Shown here in pieces: positions 1 through 6,513 of a stretch of DNA of 13,324 bases. Numbering within the stretch: the first letter of the stretch is position 1; each line of letters starts with the position of its first letter. The DNA comes from a virus (Duplodnaviria; Heunggongvirae; Uroviricota; Caudoviricetes). The notes beneath the pieces were generated by a model. That model saw only the letters and a list, made by a program, of their open reading frames with translations. It was not told the origin of the DNA and searched no databases. Location of the stretch: IMG/VR virus record IMGVR_UViG_2695420744_000004, positions 1 through 13,324 of that record. One strand, 5' to 3'. A program made the translations under genes and the position numbers.

Positions 1-5
1 ACTTT

Positions 6-63
6 AAAAAGGGCGGCAGAGCAGTCACGGAGTAAAACTGATACCGCCAAACGTCACCAGAAA
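6..63 (-). ncRNA. dicF: DicF-like small RNA, 3' portion with terminator at the window edge
   Basis: The minus-strand reading of 63..1 is UUUCUGGUGACGUUUGGCGGUAUCAGUUUUACUCCGUGACUGCUCUGCCGCCCUUUUUAAAGU, which matches my recollection of the ~53-nt E. coli DicF RNA. It has GGCGG/CCGCC pairing and ends in a U-run like an intrinsic terminator. It lies at the distal end of the leftward early operon, as dicF does in Qin. Recalled, not searched. Confidence 0.6.
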
Positions 64-305
64 ATGGATAACAGAGGGCGTTGCAGCGTGGTTGTCTCTT
101 AAGCGTATGGTCAACCTGACAACCCGGTGCTCCACAGGGGGAGAAGAGTACCCCCGCCATACTTACCGCCGCGCCGTTTCGCGGATTGCCACAACCGGGA
201 GCGCACGGTCGACGAAAATTTAACGACAAGCCATCTATGAACCAGAAACCTCGCCGTGCGCTTTCGTGTTGTGTGCCTGCTTTTAACCACGTCAGGCGAG
301 GTGGT

Positions 306-334
306 ATCCTTAAAATCACCACAGTTTTAAGGAT
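306..334. promoter_or_regulatory. perfect 10-bp inverted repeat (ATCCTTAAAA / TTTTAAGGAT, 9-bp spacer) just upstream of the 345 start codon
   Basis: Arms at 306-315 and 325-334 are exact reverse complements. No U-run follows on either strand, so a protein-binding site or RNA structure is more likely than a terminator. Confidence 0.3.
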
Positions 335-344
335 TCATTAAGCA

Positions 345-665
345 ATGTCGCAACCACCAATAAATCCACTTAAGAACATGAAAATTGATTACTGGTATAA
401 AGCGCTTACAGTTGTTGGCGCTGCGTTGTTTGTCTTTAATGGAACGTCTTTTTTCGACAGATATCCCGTTGTTCCATTGGGTTTTTTGTCCTCCGGCATC
501 TTTTTTATTGGTTTGGGAGAGTGGATTAACCACCCTCTCAAAGTGAGATTTATTGGTCCTGGAGTTTGGGCTCGTGGATATAACCGTTCTTCGTGCTCAC
601 TCGGTATCATCTTCGACATACTTGGTTGTTTCCTGATTGTTACAGGAGTCGTCAAGTTCTTCTGA
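345..665 (+). CDS. small integral membrane protein (about three hydrophobic helices), possibly superinfection-exclusion-like given its sieB-like position
   Basis: 106-aa ORF with three hydrophobic stretches (ALTVVGAALFVF, VVPLGFLSSGIFFIGLGEW, SLGIIFDILGCFLIVTGVV). It is on the opposite strand to the flanking leftward early genes, as sieB is in Rac. Function is inferred from position only. Confidence 0.5.
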   Translation: MSQPPINPLKNMKIDYWYKALTVVGAALFVFNGTSFFDRYPVVPLGFLSSGIFFIGLGEWINHPLKVRFIGPGVWARGYNRSSCSLGIIFDILGCFLIVTGVVKFF

Positions 666-902
666 TGTAAAACCGCAAATGGGGCACGTAACGGGAATTT
701 TGAAAAGCGTTTCTCCGGGTTCCAGAACAAAATTTTCTGCGGTCTGATTTTGCTTCTCATATTTGTGCTCCGCGTCATTGTGAGAGCACATTCTTATTCT
801 GAGTGCCTGTTTAAACTCACTGAAGCTGAGAGCTTCTTCGCCTTCGGCAAGGCCTTCGAAGTATTCTTCGTAAGCCTTTTCCATGATTGTGTCGAAATCC
901 AT
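597..902 (-). CDS. hypothetical early-left protein (101 aa, acidic N-terminus, C-terminal CPICG motif)
   Basis: ATG at 902 sits one nucleotide after the upstream gene's stop (TGAtATG) with an AGGTGA Shine-Dalgarno inside that gene's end, indicating translational coupling. The 3' end overlaps the convergent membrane-protein ORF by 69 nt. Confidence 0.45.
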   Translation of the reverse strand: MDFDTIMEKAYEEYFEGLAEGEEALSFSEFKQALRIRMCSHNDAEHKYEKQNQTAENFVLEPGETLFKIPVTCPICGFTSEELDDSCNNQETTKYVEDDTE

Positions 903-903
903 A

Positions 904-1059
904 TCACTCACCTGAGTTTCTTTCCAGCCAGCGACGGGCACCATTTTCGGTTTTAAACGTTTTGCTTTTGGTATACGTCATCGCGGTGAACGTACCGTCC
1001 TGGTTGGGGAACACGCCACATACCAGAGATTCGTTGTTGCCAAGATCGATAGTATCCAT
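904..1059 (-). CDS. small prophage early protein, YdaF/YdfA-like (51 aa)
   Basis: Internal ATG at 1059 preceded by GAGGT; product MDTIDLGNNESLVCGVFPNQDGTFTAMTYTKSKTFKTENGARRWLERNSGE. It is the first gene after the PL-like promoter. An alternative in-frame start at 1140 would give 78 aa. The family call is recalled with moderate certainty. Confidence 0.5.
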   Translation of the reverse strand: MDTIDLGNNESLVCGVFPNQDGTFTAMTYTKSKTFKTENGARRWLERNSGE

Positions 1060-1238
1060 GCTGACCTCATTTCCCCTTAACGCCGGGGTAGCGGAACAAA
1101 AACCTGCTGCATAGTTATTAAAGTTGAACCCTGCCGTCATGTTCTTACGCCTCGGGCTGGCTACTTAACCCCTGACCACTGCCTGGTAACTCGAAGTATT
1201 GCCTGGCGTTCTGTGGGGCGGGGTGGGTTGATGAAATA

Positions 1239-1279
1239 ATGATGCACTTTTAAAGTTATGATGTCAACACTTATAAAGT
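1239..1279 (-). promoter_or_regulatory. PL-like leftward promoter with two operator repeats
   Basis: On the minus strand: -35 TTGACA (1267-1262), 17-bp spacer, -10 CATCAT (1244-1239). Operator-like ACTTTTAAAGT (1246-1256) lies in the spacer and ACTTATAAAGT (1269-1279) just upstream, 23 bp apart. The first is the exact reverse complement of the site in the PR spacer (2308-2318). Confidence 0.45.
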
Positions 1280-1291
1280 TAGCTTTTGATC

Positions 1292-1319
1292 AATAAAAAC
1301 CGCCTCGTGTGAAGCGGTT
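1292..1319 (-). terminator. intrinsic terminator downstream of the parE-like gene
   Basis: Minus-strand RNA AACCGCUUC-ACAC-GAGGCGGUU followed by UUUAUUG: 9-bp stem (one G-U), 4-nt loop, U-rich tail, about 17 nt after the toxin stop. Confidence 0.6.
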
Positions 1320-1335
1320 CTGCGAAAAAAGAGGA

Positions 1336-1617
1336 TTATCCAGGAAATTGTCGTCTGGAGTGGGTGACACTTACTATTTCAACACTCGAAGCGGCTACAC
1401 GGTACAGAATGATATAGTTAGGATGAGCTACAATCTCACGCAAGCCAAACGCTCTGTCGCTTGATGGGTATAAGTACGGATGTTCAGATAAAGCTAAAAC
1501 ACATGTCTCAATGCGAATCTTTAGCCTGCGTGCGGCATGGAGATTTTCTTTTGCAATATAGGCTACGATCTGACGTAAATCATCACGTGCAGAAGGTAGC
1601 CATAAAATGGGCAGCAT
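1336..1617 (-). CDS. parE: ParE/RelE-superfamily type II toxin (93 aa)
   Basis: Small basic protein with the typical toxin size. Its start overlaps the stop of the upstream antitoxin ORF. It resembles the ParE2 toxin of the paaR2-paaA2-parE2 system described in E. coli O157 prophages (recalled). Confidence 0.8.
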   Translation of the reverse strand: MLPILWLPSARDDLRQIVAYIAKENLHAARRLKIRIETCVLALSEHPYLYPSSDRAFGLREIVAHPNYIILYRVAASSVEIVSVTHSRRQFPG

Positions 1618-1808
1618 TACACACTCCCGCTAGTCGCAGCAATTTGGGCAATGAGATTTTCCATTTCTGCCATTACATCATCATGAGGAATTGCAGGGCG
1701 CGGATCTGCAAGATTTGCAGCTACTTTTGCACGTAGCCATTCGTTGTAATTATTTTCTTGCTCAACGGTTTCAAACTCAGAAACCATCGGCGAAAGGGCA
1801 GTGTTCAT
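1617..1808 (-). CDS. paaA: PaaA-like antitoxin (63 aa)
   Basis: Start chosen at the internal ATG (1808) preceded by AGGAGG; product MNTALSPMVSEFETVEQENNYNEWLRAKVAANLADPRPAIPHDDVMAEMENLIAQIAATSGSV. Size and sequence match my recollection of the 63-aa PaaA2 antitoxin. Coupled to the downstream toxin. Confidence 0.75.
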   Translation of the reverse strand: MNTALSPMVSEFETVEQENNYNEWLRAKVAANLADPRPAIPHDDVMAEMENLIAQIAATSGSV

Positions 1809-1837
1809 AACATACCTCCTTTGGCTTATGATGTAGA

Positions 1838-2245
1838 CTATGCTCGGTGCCCTTTCTGGGCAGCGAGCCATCTTGCAACAGTGCGCTCCATTGATTCTTT
1901 TTTGTCTTTCATGTCTTTAAGCATTTTTTCTTGATCTTCCTCTGGAAATGCTCCGAATGTTTGAAGCAGTTCCATTTGCCTGGGGCCTATTTTCATAGTA
2001 TCTGGCACCACAACCTGCTCTTCTTCGTTTGGCGGTAACATAAACCAATATGGGGGATAACCCGTTACTTCAGAAAGTTTATCAAGATTAGCTGTTGATG
2101 GACTTGTGATTCCGTGAACCCACTTTTGTACCGATTGCTGGGCAACACCAATCCTGCGGGCTAGTTCTGCCTGCTTAAGTCCTGTTTTTTCCAGTACCAA
2201 TTTTATTCGGTACGTGGTTATTTCAAGGGTGGTCATTCGCTTCAT
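1838..2245 (-). CDS. paaR: HTH (XRE/CI-type) repressor, PaaR-like; first gene of the three-gene operon and in the cI position of the switch
   Basis: HTH motif GLKQAELARRIGVAQQSVQKWVHG. Divergent from the Cro-like gene across an operator-bearing 107-bp region. There is no obvious S24 peptidase domain (135 aa only). The first codon lies about 7 nt downstream of a TAAAAT -10, suggesting a leaderless mRNA. Confidence 0.7.
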   Translation of the reverse strand: MKRMTTLEITTYRIKLVLEKTGLKQAELARRIGVAQQSVQKWVHGITSPSTANLDKLSEVTGYPPYWFMLPPNEEEQVVVPDTMKIGPRQMELLQTFGAFPEEDQEKMLKDMKDKKESMERTVARWLAAQKGHRA

Positions 2246-2352
2246 GCATTCATTTTACATAAAAAAAGTGTAACTAGCACAATCAGCTTAAAGGTGTTGA
2301 TAAACTAACTTTAAAAGTGTATAAATCATGGTGATTCACTGGAGATAACGAT
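2246..2352. promoter_or_regulatory. divergent promoter/operator region (PR-like, and a PRM-like promoter for the repressor)
   Basis: Plus strand: -35 TTGATA (2297-2302), 17-bp spacer, -10 TATAAA (2320-2325) preceded by TG, and GGAGA Shine-Dalgarno 8 nt before ATG 2353. Three AAAG(G)TGT repeats at about 2265, 2290 and 2313, roughly 23-25 bp apart (OR1-3 analogues). Minus strand: TAAAAT at 2257-2252. Confidence 0.6.
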
Positions 2353-2619
2353 ATGCATGAATGTTTAAAAAATAAAATTCACCAAAGAGGGTTATCCCAA
2401 GCAGGTATTGCTCGTTTGATTGGATTACCGCAACAGGTTGTGTCTCGATGGGCTAATGGTCAGCAGGTCCCTGCATCAAGGGTTCTGCAACTTTGTGAGA
2501 TTATGGCGTGGGAGGTTACCCCACACGAACTCCGACCTGATATTTATCCTAACCCAACAGACGGCTTGCCTGCTGAGTTTCAGACTAGCACACAGCCAGC
2601 GACGGGAGTTGATTCATGA
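2353..2619 (+). CDS. ydaS: YdaS-family Cro-like HTH regulator
   Basis: HTH motif SQAGIARLIGLPQQVVSRWANG. Divergent from the repressor and overlaps the downstream ydaT-like start (ATGA). Confidence 0.75.
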   Translation: MHECLKNKIHQRGLSQAGIARLIGLPQQVVSRWANGQQVPASRVLQLCEIMAWEVTPHELRPDIYPNPTDGLPAEFQTSTQPATGVDS

Positions 2620-3041
2620 AAATCAAGCATGAGCACATCCGCATGGCGATGAATGCCTGGGCATATCCTGACGGTGAGAAGGTGCCAGCTGCTGCTATTG
2701 CCAGAGCGTATTTTGAACTGGGGATGACATATCCCGAGTTGCACAACGACGACAGGCACAACGCGCTCTATCTCAACACCCAAAAGATTTTCCGTTGGCT
2801 GGATAAAGACACTCCTGATGCTGTTGAGAAAATTCAGGCATTGTTACCGGCGATCGAAAGGGCAATGCCACCTCCGCTGGTAGCCCGAATGCGCAGCCAC
2901 AGTTCCGCTTATTTTCGGGAGCTGGTGGAGACGCAGGAACGGCTAGTGAAAGATATCGATGATTTCGTTGCATCAGCGATCGTTCTGTTCGACCAGATGA
3001 ATCGTGGTGGTCCTGCGGGTAATTCCGTGGCTGTGCATTGA
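2616..3041 (+). CDS. ydaT: YdaT-family protein (CII-like regulator analogue)
   Basis: 141-aa protein translationally coupled to the ydaS-like gene; synteny with Rac ydaS-ydaT. Family recalled, not searched. Confidence 0.7.
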   Translation: MKIKHEHIRMAMNAWAYPDGEKVPAAAIARAYFELGMTYPELHNDDRHNALYLNTQKIFRWLDKDTPDAVEKIQALLPAIERAMPPPLVARMRSHSSAYFRELVETQERLVKDIDDFVASAIVLFDQMNRGGPAGNSVAVH

Positions 3042-3112
3042 CTGAAAATATTTATACCGGATCGCTTCCGGCAATTCGTGAGTAAAAAGATTCGGTCTCA
3101 GAAGAGGTGAGT

Positions 3113-4153
3113 ATGGCTAATGCCTGGCTCAGATTATGGCATGACATGCCAAATGACCCTAAGTGGCGAACAATTTCCAGGGTGTCAGGACAGCCAATCG
3201 CAACAGTGATGGCTGTGTATATCCACCTTCTGGTGAGCGCGTCACGAAATGTCACGACATGTCACGGCGTGTCACTACGTGGTCACATTGATGTCACAAC
3301 GGAAGATTTAGCAAGTGCACTTGATGTGACGGAAGAAGTAATTGATTCAATTTTGCAGGCGATGCAGGGGCGGGTGCTTGATGGAGATTTAATCACTGGA
3401 TGGGAAAAACGCCAGGTAGCGAAAGAGGATAACGGCAACGTTTCGCAAACCGCGAAATCCCCGGCAGAGCGTAAGAGAGCACAACGCGAGAGGGAAAAAT
3501 TACGAAAACAGAATGAGGGGTGTCACGATGAGTCACGCATATGTCACGACATGTCACTACGAGTCACGACAGATAAAGATACAGATAAAGAATTAAACCC
3601 CACACATAACGCGCGCGTGCGCGAGAGTGCTCCGACCAGTGAATCGAACGGTACGCCGTTGCAGGCAGCGGAACCTGATTACCAGGAAAGCCTGAGCGAA
3701 CCCATCGGGAAGTTTCCGATGGCCGGTGGCTGGCATCCGTCGCCGGATTTTCGACGGCGGGCTGCACTGTGGGGAGTGGCTCTGCCGGAGCCTGAATTTA
3801 CACCTGCTGAACTTGCCGCCTTCAGGGACTACTGGGCAGCTGAGGGGAAAGTTTTTACGCAGGTTCAGTGGGAGCAGAAATTCGCCCGTCACGTAAATCA
3901 CGTCAGGGCGCAGGTTAAACCAGTCAGCAAGGGGGTGCGTCATGCAGCAGCACCAGGTGGCACCGCATCACGGGCAGTTCGGGAAATTCGGGCAGCACGT
4001 GAGCAGTGGGAACGTGAAAACGGATTTGTCAGCGACGGAAACGGCGTGGAAGCTGTGGGAGCTCATGGGGGAGGTTTATTCAAACCGCTGGACTCAGAAG
4101 AACGGGGCCGCACCTTCGAAGCTCTGGATTGCCCAGATTGGCGCGATGACTGA
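3113..4153 (+). CDS. replication initiator (lambda O analogue) with a C-terminal DnaT-like domain
   Basis: Two iteron clusters lie inside the N-terminal coding region. Residues FPMAGGWHPSPDFRRRAALWGVALPEPEFTPAELAAFRDYWAAEGKVFTQVQWEQKFARHV align with the recalled C-terminal domain of E. coli DnaT (…ALWGVAL…YWQAEGKVFHHVQWQQKLA…). AAGAGG Shine-Dalgarno before ATG 3113. The 3' end is uncertain because the frame overlaps the P-like gene. Confidence 0.7.
   Translation: MANAWLRLWHDMPNDPKWRTISRVSGQPIATVMAVYIHLLVSASRNVTTCHGVSLRGHIDVTTEDLASALDVTEEVIDSILQAMQGRVLDGDLITGWEKRQVAKEDNGNVSQTAKSPAERKRAQREREKLRKQNEGCHDESRICHDMSLRVTTDKDTDKELNPTHNARVRESAPTSESNGTPLQAAEPDYQESLSEPIGKFPMAGGWHPSPDFRRRAALWGVALPEPEFTPAELAAFRDYWAAEGKVFTQVQWEQKFARHVNHVRAQVKPVSKGVRHAAAPGGTASRAVREIRAAREQWERENGFVSDGNGVEAVGAHGGGLFKPLDSEERGRTFEALDCPDWRDD
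3241..3297. repeat. iteron cluster 1: six GTCAC(G) repeats at about 10-bp spacing inside the initiator gene
   Basis: GTCAC cores at 3241, 3251, 3261, 3271, 3282 and 3293. Confidence 0.6.
3521..3597. repeat. iteron cluster 2 (five GTCAC repeats at 10-bp spacing) plus adjacent AT-rich tract: candidate replication origin
   Basis: GTCAC cores at 3522, 3532, 3543, 3553 and 3563, followed by AGATAAAGATACAGATAAAGAATTAAA (3571-3597). Iterons next to an AT-rich region is the lambda ori arrangement. Confidence 0.65.
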
Positions 4154-4607
4154 ACAGCAAATCAGGCTGGTCTGCCGTCAGTGCATGGACCGCTGCCGGG
4201 CGGGTGAAACGTGGCCCCCGGACCTGGCTGAGTTTGTTGCGCTGATTTCGGAGAGTGGGGCAAATCCATTTGGTCTTACGGTGGATGCCGTGATGGAAGA
4301 GTACCGGCGCTGGCGCAATGAATCCTGGCGGTACGACGGGAGTGATAAATACCCGTGGCCACAGCCTGTGCTGTACCACATTTGCCTCGAGATGCGCACC
4401 AGAGGGATTGAACGTCAGATGACTGAAAGTGAGCTGAAACGACTTGCAGAACGACTGTTGACCAAATGGGCAAAGAATGTTGGTAACGGCATGAGTGTTC
4501 CGCCAGTGCGACGACAACTGGAAGGGCCAAAACACCCGCCAGGGCCAACGCCAATTGAGTTACTGAAACAGGAATATGAGCGCCGGAAAGCGGCTGGTTT
4601 TGTCTGA
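3942..4607 (+). CDS. lambda P-like replication protein (DnaB helicase loader)
   Basis: The C-terminal two-thirds align with recalled lambda P (ours YPWPQPVLYHICLEMRTRGIERQMTESELKRLAERLLTKW against lambda YPWKSNAHYWLVTNLYQNMRANALTDAELRRKAADELVHM). Strong AAGGGGG Shine-Dalgarno 6 nt before ATG 3942. A later start at ATG 4065 is possible. Confidence 0.8.
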   Translation: MQQHQVAPHHGQFGKFGQHVSSGNVKTDLSATETAWKLWELMGEVYSNRWTQKNGAAPSKLWIAQIGAMTEQQIRLVCRQCMDRCRAGETWPPDLAEFVALISESGANPFGLTVDAVMEEYRRWRNESWRYDGSDKYPWPQPVLYHICLEMRTRGIERQMTESELKRLAERLLTKWAKNVGNGMSVPPVRRQLEGPKHPPGPTPIELLKQEYERRKAAGFV

Positions 4608-4640
4608 ATTTGAGAAATGATTTTGTCGGAGGAAATTTTA

Positions 4641-5354
4641 ATGGAAACCGTTTTTGACGCACTGAAAGCACTGAAAAGAGCCTCTTCACAGGAGGTGTCG
4701 GCCCGCCTTGGAATCAGCCGCGAAGATGCTGTCAACGAGCTGTGGAAGCTGAAACGCCGTGGTGAAGCAGATAACAAGGGGTCGATGTGGTGGCTGACGA
4801 TTGAGGCAACTGAAATGGTCACAAAAACCACTGCGGAGATGCTGATTAACTCAATTGAACAGCATGGTCCTCAGTCGGCTGACGAACTGGCGTTAATGTT
4901 CGGGATTACCTCCCGCCGGGCGAATTCAACGCTGGCAATGGCAATAAGCAAAGGTCGTCTGATTCGAGTAAATCAGAACGGTAAATTTCGTTACTGCCTG
5001 TCGGGCGATAATTTACCAGCAGAGCCGAAAGCTGCATCGGTAACGGAAACTGCTGGTAAAGCCTTTCCTCAGACAGCAGGTGTTGCGTTACCAGTCCGGG
5101 AAGCGGAAACACAGGAAGAAATTAAAACTGAAAGTGTGGCGGTCACAGTGCAGTCACAGCCGTCGTTCACCAGAAAGCATCCGGATAGTCTGATTTTACC
5201 ATCGCTGCATGTGGCTAACCGCGAACTGCGCCGGGCAAAAGGTCAGGTTCAGAAGTGGGAGCGAGTCTGTGCTGCGCTGCGTGAGCTGAACAAGCACCAG
5301 GATATTGTTCGACAGATTGTCGATTCCTCCAGTCGTATTGTGTCGGAAAAGTGA
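4641..5354 (+). CDS. hypothetical protein with two predicted winged-helix-like segments
   Basis: GGAGG Shine-Dalgarno 8 nt before ATG 4641 (the ORF track's upstream start at 4617 lacks one). Function unknown. Confidence 0.55.
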
Positions 5355-5369
5355 TTGCCGGAGGTACTT

Positions 5370-5762
5370 ATGGCAAGAGTATTTACACAGGAAGAGCGGG
5401 AAGAAGTGAAGGCGCGCATTGTGGAATTCGTGCGCCTGAGCGGACGAGAAACTTTTCGACAACTGGCAGATAAAACGGGTGTCAGTAAGACCGCTATTCG
5501 TCGTTTATCTGGTGCGCTTGCGGCCAGTGGTGATGTCTGGCTCTCTGATTGCGGGGTATTTCCATCAGAGCAGGCGTATCGCGTATGGCGTAAGACACCG
5601 GAGAAGGCTGCTGACCCGACACTGATTCGAAAGTTACCTGACGGAGAAATACGTCGTTACAACAGATGGCAGAACATAATTTGTCGTGAGTGCCGCCAGA
5701 GCGAGGTTATGCAGCGTGTGCTGGCGTTCTATCGGGGAAACTTTCAGGAGGTGATGGAGTGA
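5370..5762 (+). CDS. hypothetical protein, possible HTH (QLADKTGVSKTAIRRL)
   Basis: GGAGG Shine-Dalgarno 6 nt before ATG 5370. The stop overlaps the next gene's GTG start. Confidence 0.5.
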   Translation: MARVFTQEEREEVKARIVEFVRLSGRETFRQLADKTGVSKTAIRRLSGALAASGDVWLSDCGVFPSEQAYRVWRKTPEKAADPTLIRKLPDGEIRRYNRWQNIICRECRQSEVMQRVLAFYRGNFQEVME

Positions 5763-6055
5763 GGGTGAGAGTTTATATTGCCGGTCCAATGACGGGATAT
5801 GAAAATTTCAACCGTGAGGCGTTTCACAAGGCGGAAGAGGAACTGAAACGGGAAGGGCATACCGTCTTAAACCCGGCAGTACTTCCGGACGGGCTGACAC
5901 AGCCGCACTACATGGATATTTGCATGGCAATGATTCGTTGTGTGGATGCGATTTACATGCTGAATGGCTGGCAGCGGTCAGCGGGCGCTAAGGCAGAGCT
6001 GGCACTGGCGGAGAAACTGGGGCATGCGGTGATTTATCAGGAGGTGGCTCAATGA
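5759..6055 (+). CDS. DUF4406-like / nucleoside 2-deoxyribosyltransferase-like small protein
   Basis: GTG start 8 nt after AGGAGG; N-terminus VRVYIAGPMTGYENFNREAF…VLNP matches the recalled DUF4406 signature (VYIAGPMTG). Translationally coupled on both sides. Confidence 0.55.
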   Translation: MRVRVYIAGPMTGYENFNREAFHKAEEELKREGHTVLNPAVLPDGLTQPHYMDICMAMIRCVDAIYMLNGWQRSAGAKAELALAEKLGHAVIYQEVAQ

Positions 6056-6513
6056 GAGAGGTTAACTATGAGGCGCTTCGTGAGGCAGCACAAAACTATC
6101 AGTCGACGCTGGCGTGGTATCAGGCTATCCCGGACAGCCCAAATGCTGAACGGGATTGTGATGCGGCTCTTGCTGCGTTTAAGCGTCACATCCGTCATCG
6201 GGAAGCGGATATTATCGCTGATTTGCTGGATGGACTGGAAGAAGCAAAATCACAACTCAACGAGCAGCGTGAGTATTACGAAGGCGTTATCTCTGATGGG
6301 AGCAAGCGTATTGCTGCACTGGAAGCGCGGGAAGTTCAATTACCGACTCGCTACGACCTTCGATATGGACACCCGATAAATGCAGATGAGCGACATGTCA
6401 TGATACCTAAAGAAAATGGCAGTTGGCTTTACCTGATTGACCTAGAACACGCATTACGCGTCGCTGGCATTCGCATCAAAGGAGAGGAGCATGGAAATAA
6501 AACCAGAGGATGA
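6052..6513 (+). CDS. hypothetical nin-region protein ending in the shared C-terminal IRIKGE motif
   Basis: ATGA overlap with the upstream gene and AGGAGG Shine-Dalgarno. Its 3' end carries the 18-nt sequence CATTCGCATCAAAGGAGA that also ends the gene at 6943..7368. Confidence 0.6.
   Translation: MREVNYEALREAAQNYQSTLAWYQAIPDSPNAERDCDAALAAFKRHIRHREADIIADLLDGLEEAKSQLNEQREYYEGVISDGSKRIAALEAREVQLPTRYDLRYGHPINADERHVMIPKENGSWLYLIDLEHALRVAGIRIKGEEHGNKTRG

What the first reader, a model, noticed from the sequence alone, without database searches (positions are those of the whole stretch)
5759..6055. DUF4406-like (nucleoside 2-deoxyribosyltransferase-like) protein embedded in overlapping-gene operon
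The N-terminal VYIAGPMTG motif is the recalled signature of DUF4406, a nucleoside 2-deoxyribosyltransferase-like fold. It starts with GTG overlapping the upstream stop and its stop overlaps the next start. Such folds can process nucleotides, which could bear on host or phage nucleotide pools or signalling; this is speculative.
Basis: partly seen in the sequence, partly recalled or inferred. Interest (0 to 1): 0.4.

Follow-up and report, generated by a model that had tools for sequence, protein, structure and literature searches.

The report
Prophage DUF4406 gene, NDT-like fold
This is an ordinary, already annotated 98-residue gene of an E. coli lambdoid prophage; its family (DUF4406) has never been characterised, and its fold and conserved residues suggest a small enzyme that splits the base off deoxynucleotide monophosphates.

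Summary
Window 5759-6055 (+) is a real 98-codon gene. Its GTG start overlaps the upstream stop (GTGA) and its stop overlaps the next start (ATGA). It matches Pfam DUF4406 over its full length (E 5.7e-38) and is under purifying selection (pN/pS about 0.1-0.2). RefSeq annotates the same coordinates as "DUF4406 domain-containing protein". About 22% of complete E. coli genomes carry a copy at 80% nucleotide identity or more.

The AlphaFold model (pLDDT 94.5) has the nucleoside 2-deoxyribosyltransferase (NDT) / DNPH1 / MilB fold, in a truncated four-strand form. By alignment the protein keeps the superfamily triad (Tyr6, Asp63, Glu80). At the position where NDTs carry the Asp that holds the 5'-OH, it has an invariant Ser74-x-Gly76. 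That is the phosphate-binding motif of the (d)NMP N-glycosidases DNPH1 and MilB.

My best reading, inferred and not shown, is a minimal deoxynucleoside-5'-monophosphate N-glycosidase expressed from the phage early rightward operon. It is probably not a true nucleoside transferase.

One supporting clue: in several actinophages the DUF4406 gene is translationally coupled to, or near, a dATP/dGTP diphosphohydrolase gene.

No functional literature was found. This is a known family of unknown function, so interest is low to moderate.

The parts
5759..6055 (+). DUF4406 coding sequence (98 codons plus TGA). Predicted topology is b1(4-8)-a1(15-31)-b2(35-37)-a2(48-59)-b3(64-67)-a3(75-87)-b4(90-93).
   Evidence: PF14359, E 5.7e-38. 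(PHROG 355, 3e-48). (RefSeq CDS WP_001266130.1 at the same coordinates). (AF2 model, pLDDT 94.5). (pN/pS 0.1-0.2).
5746..5751 (+). AGGAGG Shine-Dalgarno sequence, 7 nt upstream of the GTG start at 5759 and 13 nt upstream of the alternative GTG at 5765.
   Evidence: Read directly from the sequence.
5759..5762 (+). GTGA junction: the DUF4406 start overlaps the stop of the upstream DUF977 / Ren-like gene.
6052..6055 (+). ATGA junction: the DUF4406 stop overlaps the start of the downstream Ead/Ea22-like gene.
5774..5776 (+). Codon for Tyr6. It aligns with the triad Tyr of NDTs and with the Phe of the ribo-specific BlsM. The column is Tyr in 88% and Phe in 12% of family representatives.
   Evidence: profile alignments to 2a0k and 5vto. 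(column frequencies). (published role of this Tyr).
5945..5947 (+). Codon for Asp63. It aligns with the triad Asp of NDTs and BlsM. The column is Asp in only 71% of representatives (Glu 9, Asn 7, Thr 7).
5978..5998 (+). Codons for Ser74-Ala-Gly76-Ala77-Lys-Ala-Glu80. This is the invariant S-x-G-A-x-x-E motif: the putative 5'-phosphate binder plus the nucleophilic Glu.
   Evidence: S74 100%, G76 99%, A77 97%, E80 99% of 137 representatives. (aligned to VSPGTHIE of BcmB, PSPGTHVE of BlsM and PDCGTAFE of TbNDRT). (MilB Ser97 and Gly99 bind the phosphate; E103 is catalytic). (DNPH1 S98 and E104).
5370..5762 (+). Upstream operon neighbour: DUF977 / Ren-like exclusion protein family (start as annotated in RefSeq).
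6052..6513 (+). Downstream operon neighbour: Ead/Ea22-like protein.
2254..2283 (+). The only sigma-70-like site upstream on the + strand, lying before the cro-like gene. It is the candidate PR-type promoter of the early rightward operon that contains the gene. Consensus match only.

Best explanation
Window 5759-6055 encodes a genuine 98-residue protein of the DUF4406 family. It sits in the early rightward (replication / nin-like) operon of a Rac/Qin-type lambdoid prophage of E. coli and is translationally coupled to its neighbours.

The protein is a truncated, four-strand version of the N-(deoxy)ribosyltransferase-like fold. By alignment (not by structural superposition) it keeps the superfamily's catalytic triad: Tyr6, Asp63 and the nucleophile Glu80. 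Six residues before the Glu it has an invariant Ser-x-Gly. That is the 5'-phosphate-binding motif of the (d)NMP N-glycosidases DNPH1, MilB, BcmB and BlsM. Nucleoside transferases instead have an Asp there, which holds a free 5'-OH.

The most likely mechanism is as follows. During lytic growth the protein binds a nucleoside 5'-monophosphate, probably a 2'-deoxy one because residue 6 is Tyr rather than Phe. Glu80 attacks C1' and the base is released. This yields a free base plus (deoxy)ribose 5-phosphate, or transfers the phosphosugar to another base.

Shown here: the gene, the family membership, the fold, the residue conservation and the operon position.

Inferred only: catalysis, substrate class, deoxy preference and biological role. 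I take the role to be conditioning or sanitising the nucleotide pool for phage replication.
For: Gene and family:
- PF14359 matches at E 5.7e-38 over the full length.
- The identical RefSeq CDS sits at the same coordinates.
- pN/pS is 0.1-0.2.

Fold:
- The AF2 model has pLDDT 94.5 and pTM 0.87.
- Foldseek against PDB finds NDTs, DNPH1, BcmB and MilB, with TMq 0.64-0.79.
- A profile of 68 homologues finds T. brucei NDRT by sequence at E 3.2e-5.

Active site:
- The alignments place Y6, D63 and E80 on the NDT triad.
- They place S74 and G76 on the S-P-G of BcmB and BlsM.
- Among 137-146 representatives of 50%-identity clusters, S74 is 100%, G76 99%, E80 99%, and Y6 88% with Phe 12%.

Published roles of the equivalent residues:
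- DNPH1 uses the triad Y24/D80/E104 and binds phosphate through S98 (PMC10603095).
- MilB uses Ser97 and Gly99 for phosphate and E103 for catalysis (PMC4081090).
- NDTs use Asp or Asn for the 5'-OH, whereas hydrolases have small uncharged residues there. The Tyr excludes ribo substrates (PMC12884076). MilB F17Y shifts preference to deoxyribose.

Context:
- In 101 diverse loci the gene sits in temperate-phage replication modules, next to Phage_rep_O, DnaC-like, RusA, helicase and similar genes.
- In mycobacteriophage ZoeJ the DUF4406 gene overlaps by 4 nt a dATP/dGTP diphosphohydrolase gene (PF18909, E 4.8e-40). That enzyme would make dNMPs.
- The same adjacency occurs in an unrelated metagenomic viral contig. 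In phage Courthouse the two genes lie within 1 kb.
- BFVD holds larger viral proteins that UniProt names after that diphosphohydrolase domain. They match the model at TMq 0.85-0.90, which suggests fusions, but I did not verify their domain content.
- A phage precedent exists: the NDT-like dAMP N-glycosidase/transferase DmtZ is paired or fused with a dNTPase (DutZ).
Against: - No member of DUF4406, nor of its closest structural neighbour DUF1937 (PDB 1t1j), has a reported activity.
- The protein lacks the whole C-terminal third of NDT and DNPH1. That includes the partner-subunit helix that supplies DNPH1 Ser128' for phosphate binding. It also has Thr12 where MilB has the phosphate-binding Arg23. 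The active site may therefore be incomplete or built differently.
- The triad Asp63 is only 71% conserved.
- The residue equivalences come from sequence-profile alignments, not from a superposition of active sites. Model coordinates could not be inspected.
- The dNTP-diphosphohydrolase link is seen in actinophages and uncultured phages only. It is absent from this window and from the 100 proteobacterial and other prophage loci examined.
- No benefit of degrading dNMPs is obvious for a phage with unmodified DNA.
Confidence: 0.45

Rival explanations
1. It is a true nucleoside 2-deoxyribosyltransferase, as PHROG 355 and many phage annotations name it. It would swap bases between free deoxynucleosides for salvage.
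For: PHROG 355 'nucleoside 2-deoxyribosyltransferase' matches at 3e-48. The top Foldseek and sequence-profile hits are kinetoplastid and cyanobacterial NDTs. GenBank phage homologues are mostly labelled this way.
Against: - The labels are inherited names, not assays. The same family is also labelled dCMP deaminase, MazG-like or hydrolase, although those proteins contain a DUF4406 domain and no deaminase or MazG domain.
- The window protein does not reach Pfam Nuc_deoxyrib_tr (PF05014) at E 0.01.
- The NDT Asp that binds the 5'-OH is replaced by an invariant Ser.
- The C-terminal segment that completes the NDT active site across subunits is absent (98 aa against about 150-160).
Confidence: 0.15
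2. It is a TIR-like glycohydrolase acting on NAD+ or on NAD-derived or ADP-ribose-derived molecules. One example would be destroying a host immune signal, which would make it a counter-defence enzyme.
Against: NDT and MilB hits score higher than TIR hits in both searches. The S-x-G-x-x-x-E motif is that of the NMP glycosidases. There is no PADLOC match. No association with Thoeris-like or other defence loci appeared in 101 neighbourhoods. No experimental hint exists.
Confidence: 0.1
3. It is not an enzyme. It is a small nucleotide-binding protein (a sponge or regulator), or a partner that binds another phage or host replication protein.
For: The fold is truncated and lacks elements that complete the active site in DNPH1 and NDT. 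The triad Asp is only 71% conserved. The gene always sits among replication and recombination genes.
Against: Near-absolute conservation of Glu80, Ser74 and Gly76 across representatives down to about 45% identity is what is expected of catalytic and substrate-binding residues. A pure binder would not need the nucleophile.
Confidence: 0.12
4. It acts on nucleic acid rather than on free nucleotides, for example by removing a base next to a 5'-phosphorylated DNA or RNA end.
For: Its position in the replication / recombination module next to RusA, HNH, exonuclease and methylase genes in various phages. The putative 5'-phosphate pocket.
Against: To my knowledge no member of the NDT, DNPH1 or MilB clade acts on polymers. 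The small protein has no obvious DNA-binding surface or domain. Nothing in the data specifically points to this.
Confidence: 0.05

Closest known systems
Pfam DUF4406 (PF14359), clan of N-(deoxy)ribosyltransferase-like proteins
   Same: Full-length match far above the curated threshold (129.7 bits against 22). Same length, the same conserved Y-I-A-G-P-M-T-G, N-P-A and S-x-G-A-x-x-E motifs, and the same phage or prophage setting.
   Different: Nothing differs: this is a typical member. The family itself has no assigned function.
DNPH1 / Rcl, and MilB / BcmB / BlsM: (deoxy)nucleoside 5'-monophosphate N-glycosidases
   Different: Only 16-22% identity. About 98 aa against 150-175 aa. It lacks strand 5 and the C-terminal helix that reaches into the partner subunit (DNPH1 Ser128'). 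It has Thr12 where MilB has Arg23. It does not reach these proteins by single-sequence search. Activity is untested.
Nucleoside 2-deoxyribosyltransferases (Pfam PF05014; T. brucei 2a0k, L. mexicana 6qai, C. thermalis 8pqt, L. leichmannii 1f8x)
   Same: Best sequence-profile hit (E 3.2e-5) and best Foldseek hits. Shared Y-I-A-G-P N-terminus and triad.
   Different: Ser replaces the Asp that recognises the 5'-OH. No C-terminal active-site segment. The window protein is below the reporting threshold for PF05014.
DUF1937 (PF09152), PDB 1t1j, P. aeruginosa PA1492
   Different: 17% identity and a separate Pfam family. It is likewise a structural-genomics protein without a known function, so it adds no mechanism.
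DmtZ, the NDT-like dAMP N-glycosidase / phosphodeoxyribosyltransferase of Z-genome phages, paired or fused with the dNTPase DutZ (PMC12884076)
   Same: A phage-encoded NDT-superfamily enzyme acting on a dNMP. It has small uncharged residues at the 5'-phosphate site and is genetically linked to a dNTP-hydrolysing enzyme. This parallels the DUF4406 / PF18909 gene pair in ZoeJ-like phages.
   Different: DmtZ is about 145 aa with five strands and belongs to a dedicated Z-base pathway (PurZ0 phages). This prophage has no such pathway and no dNTPase partner in the window.

Membership tests
DUF4406 (PF14359) | Score above Pfam's gathering threshold, covering the whole domain model. | tested here: met
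   129.7 bits against a cut-off of 22. Residues 4-93 match profile positions 2-91 of 91.
DUF4406 (PF14359) | Family-wide conserved motifs: G9, N18, F22, N38-P39-A40, P43, Y51, W71, S74, G76, A77, E80. | tested here: met
   All are present in the window protein. Column frequencies are 90-100% in 137-146 cluster representatives (A40 is 87%).
N-(deoxy)ribosyltransferase-like superfamily (NDT / DNPH1 / MilB) | Flavodoxin-like alpha/beta fold with a parallel sheet. | tested here: met
N-(deoxy)ribosyltransferase-like superfamily (NDT / DNPH1 / MilB) | Catalytic triad Tyr(Phe) / Asp(Asn) / Glu, with Glu as the nucleophile. | tested here: met
   Y6, D63 and E80 align with the triad of 2a0k and 5vto. 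Family-wide, E80 is 99%, Y6 88% (Phe 12%) and D63 71%. The equivalence is by alignment only; no active-site superposition was possible.
Nucleoside 2-deoxyribosyltransferase (PF05014, EC 2.4.2.6) | Asp or Asn that binds the free 5'-OH, six residues before the nucleophilic Glu. | tested here: not met
   The position is an invariant Ser (S74). It aligns with the D of 'PDCGTAFE' in 2a0k. For the role of Asp/Asn see PMC12884076.
Nucleoside 2-deoxyribosyltransferase (PF05014, EC 2.4.2.6) | C-terminal segment and partner-subunit residues that complete the active site (protein of about 150-160 aa). | tested here: not met
   The protein ends about five residues after strand 4 (98 aa). Targets are 135-165 aa and only about half of each is covered (TMt about 0.5).
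Nucleoside 2-deoxyribosyltransferase (PF05014, EC 2.4.2.6) | Pfam PF05014 match above threshold. | tested here: not met
   No PF05014 hit at E <= 0.01 for the window protein. Of four actinophage DUF4406 members with a PF05014 hit, three are sub-threshold (16.8-22.3 bits) and one just reaches the 28.8-bit cut-off (29.3 bits).
Nucleoside 2-deoxyribosyltransferase (PF05014, EC 2.4.2.6) | Base exchange between deoxynucleosides. | not testable with these tools
   Requires an enzyme assay.
(d)NMP N-glycosidases (DNPH1 / Rcl, MilB, BcmB, BlsM) | Ser-x-Gly phosphate-binding motif six residues upstream of the nucleophilic Glu. | tested here: met
   S74-A-G76-A-K-A-E80 aligns with VSPGTHIE (BcmB) and PSPGTHVE (BlsM). 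MilB Ser97 and Gly99 bind the phosphate and E103 is catalytic. In DNPH1 the equivalents are S98 and E104.
(d)NMP N-glycosidases (DNPH1 / Rcl, MilB, BcmB, BlsM) | A second phosphate ligand: DNPH1 Ser128' from the partner's C-terminal helix, or MilB Arg23. | tested here: not met
   There is no C-terminal helix. By motif register (my own counting), the MilB Arg23 position is Thr12, which is Thr or Ser in 93% of representatives. Whether Thr12 or Arg19 substitutes is unknown.
(d)NMP N-glycosidases (DNPH1 / Rcl, MilB, BcmB, BlsM) | Homodimer with active sites at the interface. | not testable with these tools
   Only single-chain prediction was available.
(d)NMP N-glycosidases (DNPH1 / Rcl, MilB, BcmB, BlsM) | Hydrolysis of a nucleoside 5'-monophosphate to base plus (deoxy)ribose 5-phosphate. 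| not testable with these tools
   Requires an enzyme assay.
TIR-domain NAD+ glycohydrolases | TIR fold with a catalytic Glu and NAD+ cleavage. | tested here: inconclusive

The most novel reading that the evidence does not exclude
DUF4406 may be an unrecognised, minimal (about 95 aa, four-strand) clade of deoxynucleoside-5'-monophosphate N-glycosidases. Temperate phages from many bacterial phyla would carry it in their replication modules. In some phages it would be coupled to a dNTP diphosphohydrolase, so that together they dismantle particular (d)NTPs down to base plus sugar phosphate. The purpose could be to sanitise non-canonical nucleotides, or to disarm a nucleotide-based host defence. 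The family is large: 12,253 clusters at 50% identity.
Probability: 0.3. Interest if true: 0.5.

Novelty: already known. Interest (0 to 1): 0.25.

Why it matters
The gene itself is routine. The identical protein is in RefSeq as a 'MULTISPECIES' DUF4406 entry, is seen on at least 1000 contigs, and about one complete E. coli genome in five carries a copy at 80% nucleotide identity or more.

What remains open is the function of the family. It is very large (12,253 clusters at 50% identity) and spans Proteobacteria, Actinobacteria, Planctomycetes, Chloroflexota and their phages. It sits consistently in phage replication modules. Databases label it inconsistently, as deoxyribosyltransferase, dCMP deaminase, MazG-like or hydrolase.

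The residue pattern gives a concrete and cheap hypothesis: a (d)NMP N-glycosidase rather than a nucleoside transferase. Testing it would correct thousands of annotations. It could also reveal a new way in which temperate phages edit the nucleotide pool.

Tried and rejected
1. Single-sequence search of the PDB found nothing relevant. Only the 68-sequence profile reached NDTs.

2. NCBIfam and PADLOC gave no match for the protein.

3. Literature searches found only incidental annotations or nothing functional for this family. Terms tried: DUF4406, PF14359, DUF1937, 'nucleoside 2-deoxyribosyltransferase-like' with phage, and deoxyribosyltransferase with prophage, lambdoid or anti-defense.

4. Domain fusions among long cluster representatives:
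   - Ten proteins of 208-358 aa were scanned. None had a Pfam partner domain. One showed only weak overlapping hits to the related PF05014 and DUF7768 families.
   - A recurrent N-terminal 'LxFLVxNLxxWP' extension has no Pfam or PHROG identity and no counterpart in the window.
   - Some of these long products may be gene-calling read-throughs.

5. PHROG hits to 'MazG-like pyrophosphatase' (12019) and 'hydrolase' (15484), and GenBank labels 'deoxycytidylate deaminase', 'MazG-like pyrophosphatase' and 'hydrolase', looked like fusion evidence.
   - The three labelled proteins checked (121-128 aa) contain a DUF4406 domain with at most weak hits to the related PF05014 family, and no deaminase or MazG domain.
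   - ZoeJ gp55 (PF18909) belongs to PHROG 801, not to 12019.
   - I therefore treat those labels as mis-annotation, not as evidence.

6. Neighbourhood clustering of 101 loci found no constant partner gene.

7. The afdb50 fold library was not available. Two papers I wanted for NDT Asp92 and MilB Phe17 were not held.

8. The first genome-contig scan with the 68-sequence alignment failed for lack of a conserved enough stretch. It was repeated with a 14-sequence alignment.

Full report
**Observation**

Window 5759-6055 (+) reads GTG AGG GTG AGA GTT TAT ATT GCC GGT CCA ATG ACG GGA..., translating to VRVRVYIAGPMTG... It is 98 codons followed by TGA.

- The GTG at 5759 overlaps the TGA (5760-5762) of the upstream ORF.
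- The stop (6053-6055) overlaps the ATG (6052) of the next ORF.
- An AGGAGG lies 7 nt upstream of the start.
- A second in-frame GTG at 5765 would give MRVYIAGP, as in many homologues, so the start is uncertain by two codons at most.

The frame matches Pfam DUF4406 (PF14359) end to end, with E 5.7e-38 and 129.7 bits against a cut-off of 22. It also matches PHROG 355 at 3e-48.

Compared with copies that differ by 8-12% in DNA, pN/pS is 0.09-0.18. No Rfam family, tRNA, or + strand promoter- or terminator-like site lies within or next to the gene.

**Where the gene sits**

Window positions 1-9813 are 99.97% identical to E. coli 23CRST047 (NZ_AP045820.1). There the region is a Rac/Qin-type lambdoid prophage integrated beside potCD. 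RefSeq annotates the very same coordinates as WP_001266130.1, 'DUF4406 domain-containing protein'.

The gene order on the + strand is:

1. cro-like regulator
2. YdaT-family protein
3. DnaT-like replication protein
4. lambda-P-like protein
5. DUF1627
6. DUF977 / Ren-like
7. DUF4406
8. Ead/Ea22-like
9. several small unknown ORFs
10. hok/sok, DUF968, RusA

Most junctions around the gene are 4-nt overlaps. This is the early rightward operon.

How common the gene is:

- The exact protein is found on at least 1000 contigs under the name DUF4406.
- 1,210 of 5,426 complete E. coli genomes carry a copy at 80% nucleotide identity or more, with up to four copies per genome.
- In phage Rac-SA53 the homologue is the hypothetical 'rac19'.

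**The family**

An exhaustive HMMER search returns 12,253 clusters (at 50% identity) with E <= 1e-3, and 1,929 with E <= 1e-10.

A scan of one genome per species finds relatives in Enterobacterales, Vibrio, Shewanella, Aeromonas, Betaproteobacteria, Planctomycetota, Chloroflexota, Actinomycetes, Alicyclobacillus and others. 526 GenBank phage records contain one, mostly Arthrobacter, Vibrio, Gordonia, Mycobacterium and Pseudomonas phages.

I clustered the neighbours in 101 loci. The gene lies in temperate-phage early or replication modules. The recurring neighbours are:

- replication protein O, in 28 loci, mostly two to four genes upstream
- a CI-type repressor
- a DnaC/IstB-like loader
- RusA
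- HNH endonuclease
- a TraR/DksA zinc finger
- Ead/Ea22
- a helicase

There is no constant partner gene.

**Structure**

With a 68-sequence alignment, AlphaFold2 gives a confident model with pLDDT 94.5 and pTM 0.87. The topology is b1-a1-b2-a2-b3-a3-b4.

- Foldseek against the PDB finds T. brucei NDRT (2a0k; E 4e-5, TMq 0.75). After it come Leishmania and Chroococcidiopsis NDTs, human DNPH1, BcmB and MilB.

Targets are 135-165 residues long and only about half of each is covered. DUF4406 is a truncated form that lacks strand 5 and the C-terminal segment.

**Active-site reading**

A profile of the alignment finds 2a0k by sequence at E 3.2e-5. More weakly, it also finds BcmB, a Leishmania NDT and BlsM. 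In those alignments:

- Tyr6 falls on the triad Tyr of NDTs, and on the Phe of the ribo-specific BlsM.
- Asp63 falls on the triad Asp.
- Glu80 falls on the nucleophilic Glu.
- Ser74-x-Gly76 falls on the S-P-G of 'VSPGTHIE' (BcmB) and 'PSPGTHVE' (BlsM), and on the D-C-G of 'PDCGTAFE' (TbNDRT).

Across 137-146 cluster representatives the column frequencies are:

| Residue | Conservation |
|---|---|
| Ser74 | 100% |
| Gly76 | 99% |
| Ala77 | 97% |
| Glu80 | 99% |
| Tyr6 | 88% (Phe 12%) |
| Asp63 | 71% |

The published roles of the equivalent residues are as follows.

- In DNPH1 the triad is Y24/D80/E104, and S98 binds the phosphate together with S128' from the partner subunit (PMC10603095).
- In MilB, Ser97 and Gly99 bind the phosphate and E103 is catalytic (PMC4081090).
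- NDTs use Asp or Asn to hold the 5'-OH, whereas the hydrolases have small uncharged residues there. The Tyr helps exclude ribo substrates (PMC12884076). MilB F17Y shifts preference to deoxyribose.

The spacing from Ser to Glu is six residues in DNPH1, in MilB and in this protein.

On these grounds the protein looks like a nucleoside-5'-monophosphate N-glycosidase, probably with a 2'-deoxy preference. It does not look like the nucleoside transferase that many annotations name. This is inference from alignment. I could not superpose active sites, because model coordinates are not exposed.

**Contextual clue**

In mycobacteriophage ZoeJ, gp54 carries a C-terminal DUF4406 domain. It overlaps by 4 nt gp55, which contains two copies of PF18909, the 'dATP/dGTP diphosphohydrolase, N-terminal' domain (E 4.8e-40; PHROG 801).

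- The same adjacency is seen in ZoeJ relatives and in an unrelated metagenomic viral contig (L173).
- In phage Courthouse the two genes are about 1 kb apart.
- BFVD contains larger viral proteins that UniProt names after that diphosphohydrolase domain. They match the model with TMq 0.85-0.90. This suggests fusions, but I did not check their domain content.

A dNTP diphosphohydrolase produces dNMPs, which are the proposed substrate. The arrangement parallels the characterised phage pair DutZ/DmtZ, a dNTPase plus an NDT-like dAMP N-glycosidase/transferase.

The link is restricted to some lineages. It is absent from this window and from the proteobacterial and other prophage loci examined.

**Caveats and rivals**

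No DUF4406 or DUF1937 protein has been assayed, according to the searchable literature.

The protein lacks the partner-subunit helix that supplies the second phosphate ligand in DNPH1. It has Thr where MilB has Arg23, and the triad Asp is not universal.

The rival readings are:

- a true nucleoside transferase, which is disfavoured by Ser74 and the missing C-terminus
- a non-catalytic nucleotide binder, which is disfavoured by the invariant Glu80
- an activity on 5'-phosphorylated nucleic-acid ends

Annotation labels such as 'deoxycytidylate deaminase', 'MazG-like pyrophosphatase' and 'hydrolase' were checked. In the three cases tested, the proteins contain a DUF4406 domain and no deaminase or MazG domain. 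These labels are therefore not evidence.

**Verdict**

However, the gene is an ordinary, already annotated member of a known family of unknown function.

The added value of this check is a specific, testable prediction. The protein is probably a minimal dNMP N-glycosidase, with Glu80 as nucleophile and Ser74/Gly76 as phosphate binders. It is expressed with the phage replication genes.

- Confidence in gene, family and fold: above 0.95.
- Confidence in the proposed activity: about 0.45.
- Interest: low to moderate.

Noticed in passing
window 8329-9815 and 10064-11544: A 1.5-kb segment is present twice in direct orientation at 94% identity. It holds hok/mok with its sok RNA, a small ORF, and the 5' part of a DUF968 gene. 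The first DUF968 copy is truncated (9121-9834, 237 aa) and the second is full length (10850-11905, 351 aa). The window matches NZ_AP045820.1 only up to 9813, so this looks like a mosaic or recombination junction between two lambdoid prophage backbones.
   Followed up: partly
window 8348-8523 (+) and 10083-10258 (+): Two Rfam sok antitoxin RNA matches (112 and 120 bits against a gathering score of 59). The window therefore holds two hok/sok type I toxin-antitoxin loci.
   Followed up: partly
window 11-62 (-): Full-length DicF antisense sRNA (Rfam RF00039, 76.7 bits). In the matching genome dicB lies beyond it, as expected for a Qin/Rac-type immunity region.
   Followed up: no
window 7370-7885 (+): This is an intact 171-aa ORF with a full-length match to PHROG 9263 (1.5e-120). 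In the identical genome, RefSeq annotates only 7370-7548 as a 'frameshifted' pseudogene. The pseudogene call may be wrong.
   Followed up: no
window about 1336-1871 (-) and 2616-3041 (+); L001 7337-9042: The immunity region of this prophage carries a RelE/ParE-RelB toxin-antitoxin pair beside the repressor. A YdaT-family 'toxin' gene follows directly after the cro-like gene.
   Followed up: no
proteins P0148, P0157, P0169, P0172, P0173, P0175, P0252: A recurrent N-terminal extension, with the pattern 'MKKQxTLxFLVxNLxxWP...', lies in front of the DUF4406 domain in several metagenomic representatives. It has no Pfam or PHROG identity and no counterpart in the window. It could be a real fusion partner or a gene-calling read-through.
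   Followed up: partly
GenBank phage records MH834616.1 gene 54, NC_071023.1 gene 27, MH399781.1 gene 65 (loci L163-L165): Proteins that contain a DUF4406 domain, and no deaminase or MazG domain, are annotated as 'deoxycytidylate deaminase', 'MazG-like pyrophosphatase' and 'hydrolase'. The names of PHROG 12019 and 15484 inherit the same confusion.
   Followed up: yes
L166 2123-3435 (Mycobacterium phage ZoeJ gp54-gp55); L173 2570-3400; L167 2477-4476: A DUF4406 gene is translationally coupled to, or lies near, a PF18909 dATP/dGTP diphosphohydrolase gene in unrelated actinophage and metagenomic phage lineages. This may be a two-step dNTP-dismantling module.
   Followed up: partly
genome and viral loci L061-L162 (cluster 3): An uncharacterised protein family of about 200 aa, with no Pfam match, is the most frequent immediate neighbour of DUF4406. 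It occurs in 19 of 101 loci at positions -3 to +2. It is absent from this window.
   Followed up: no
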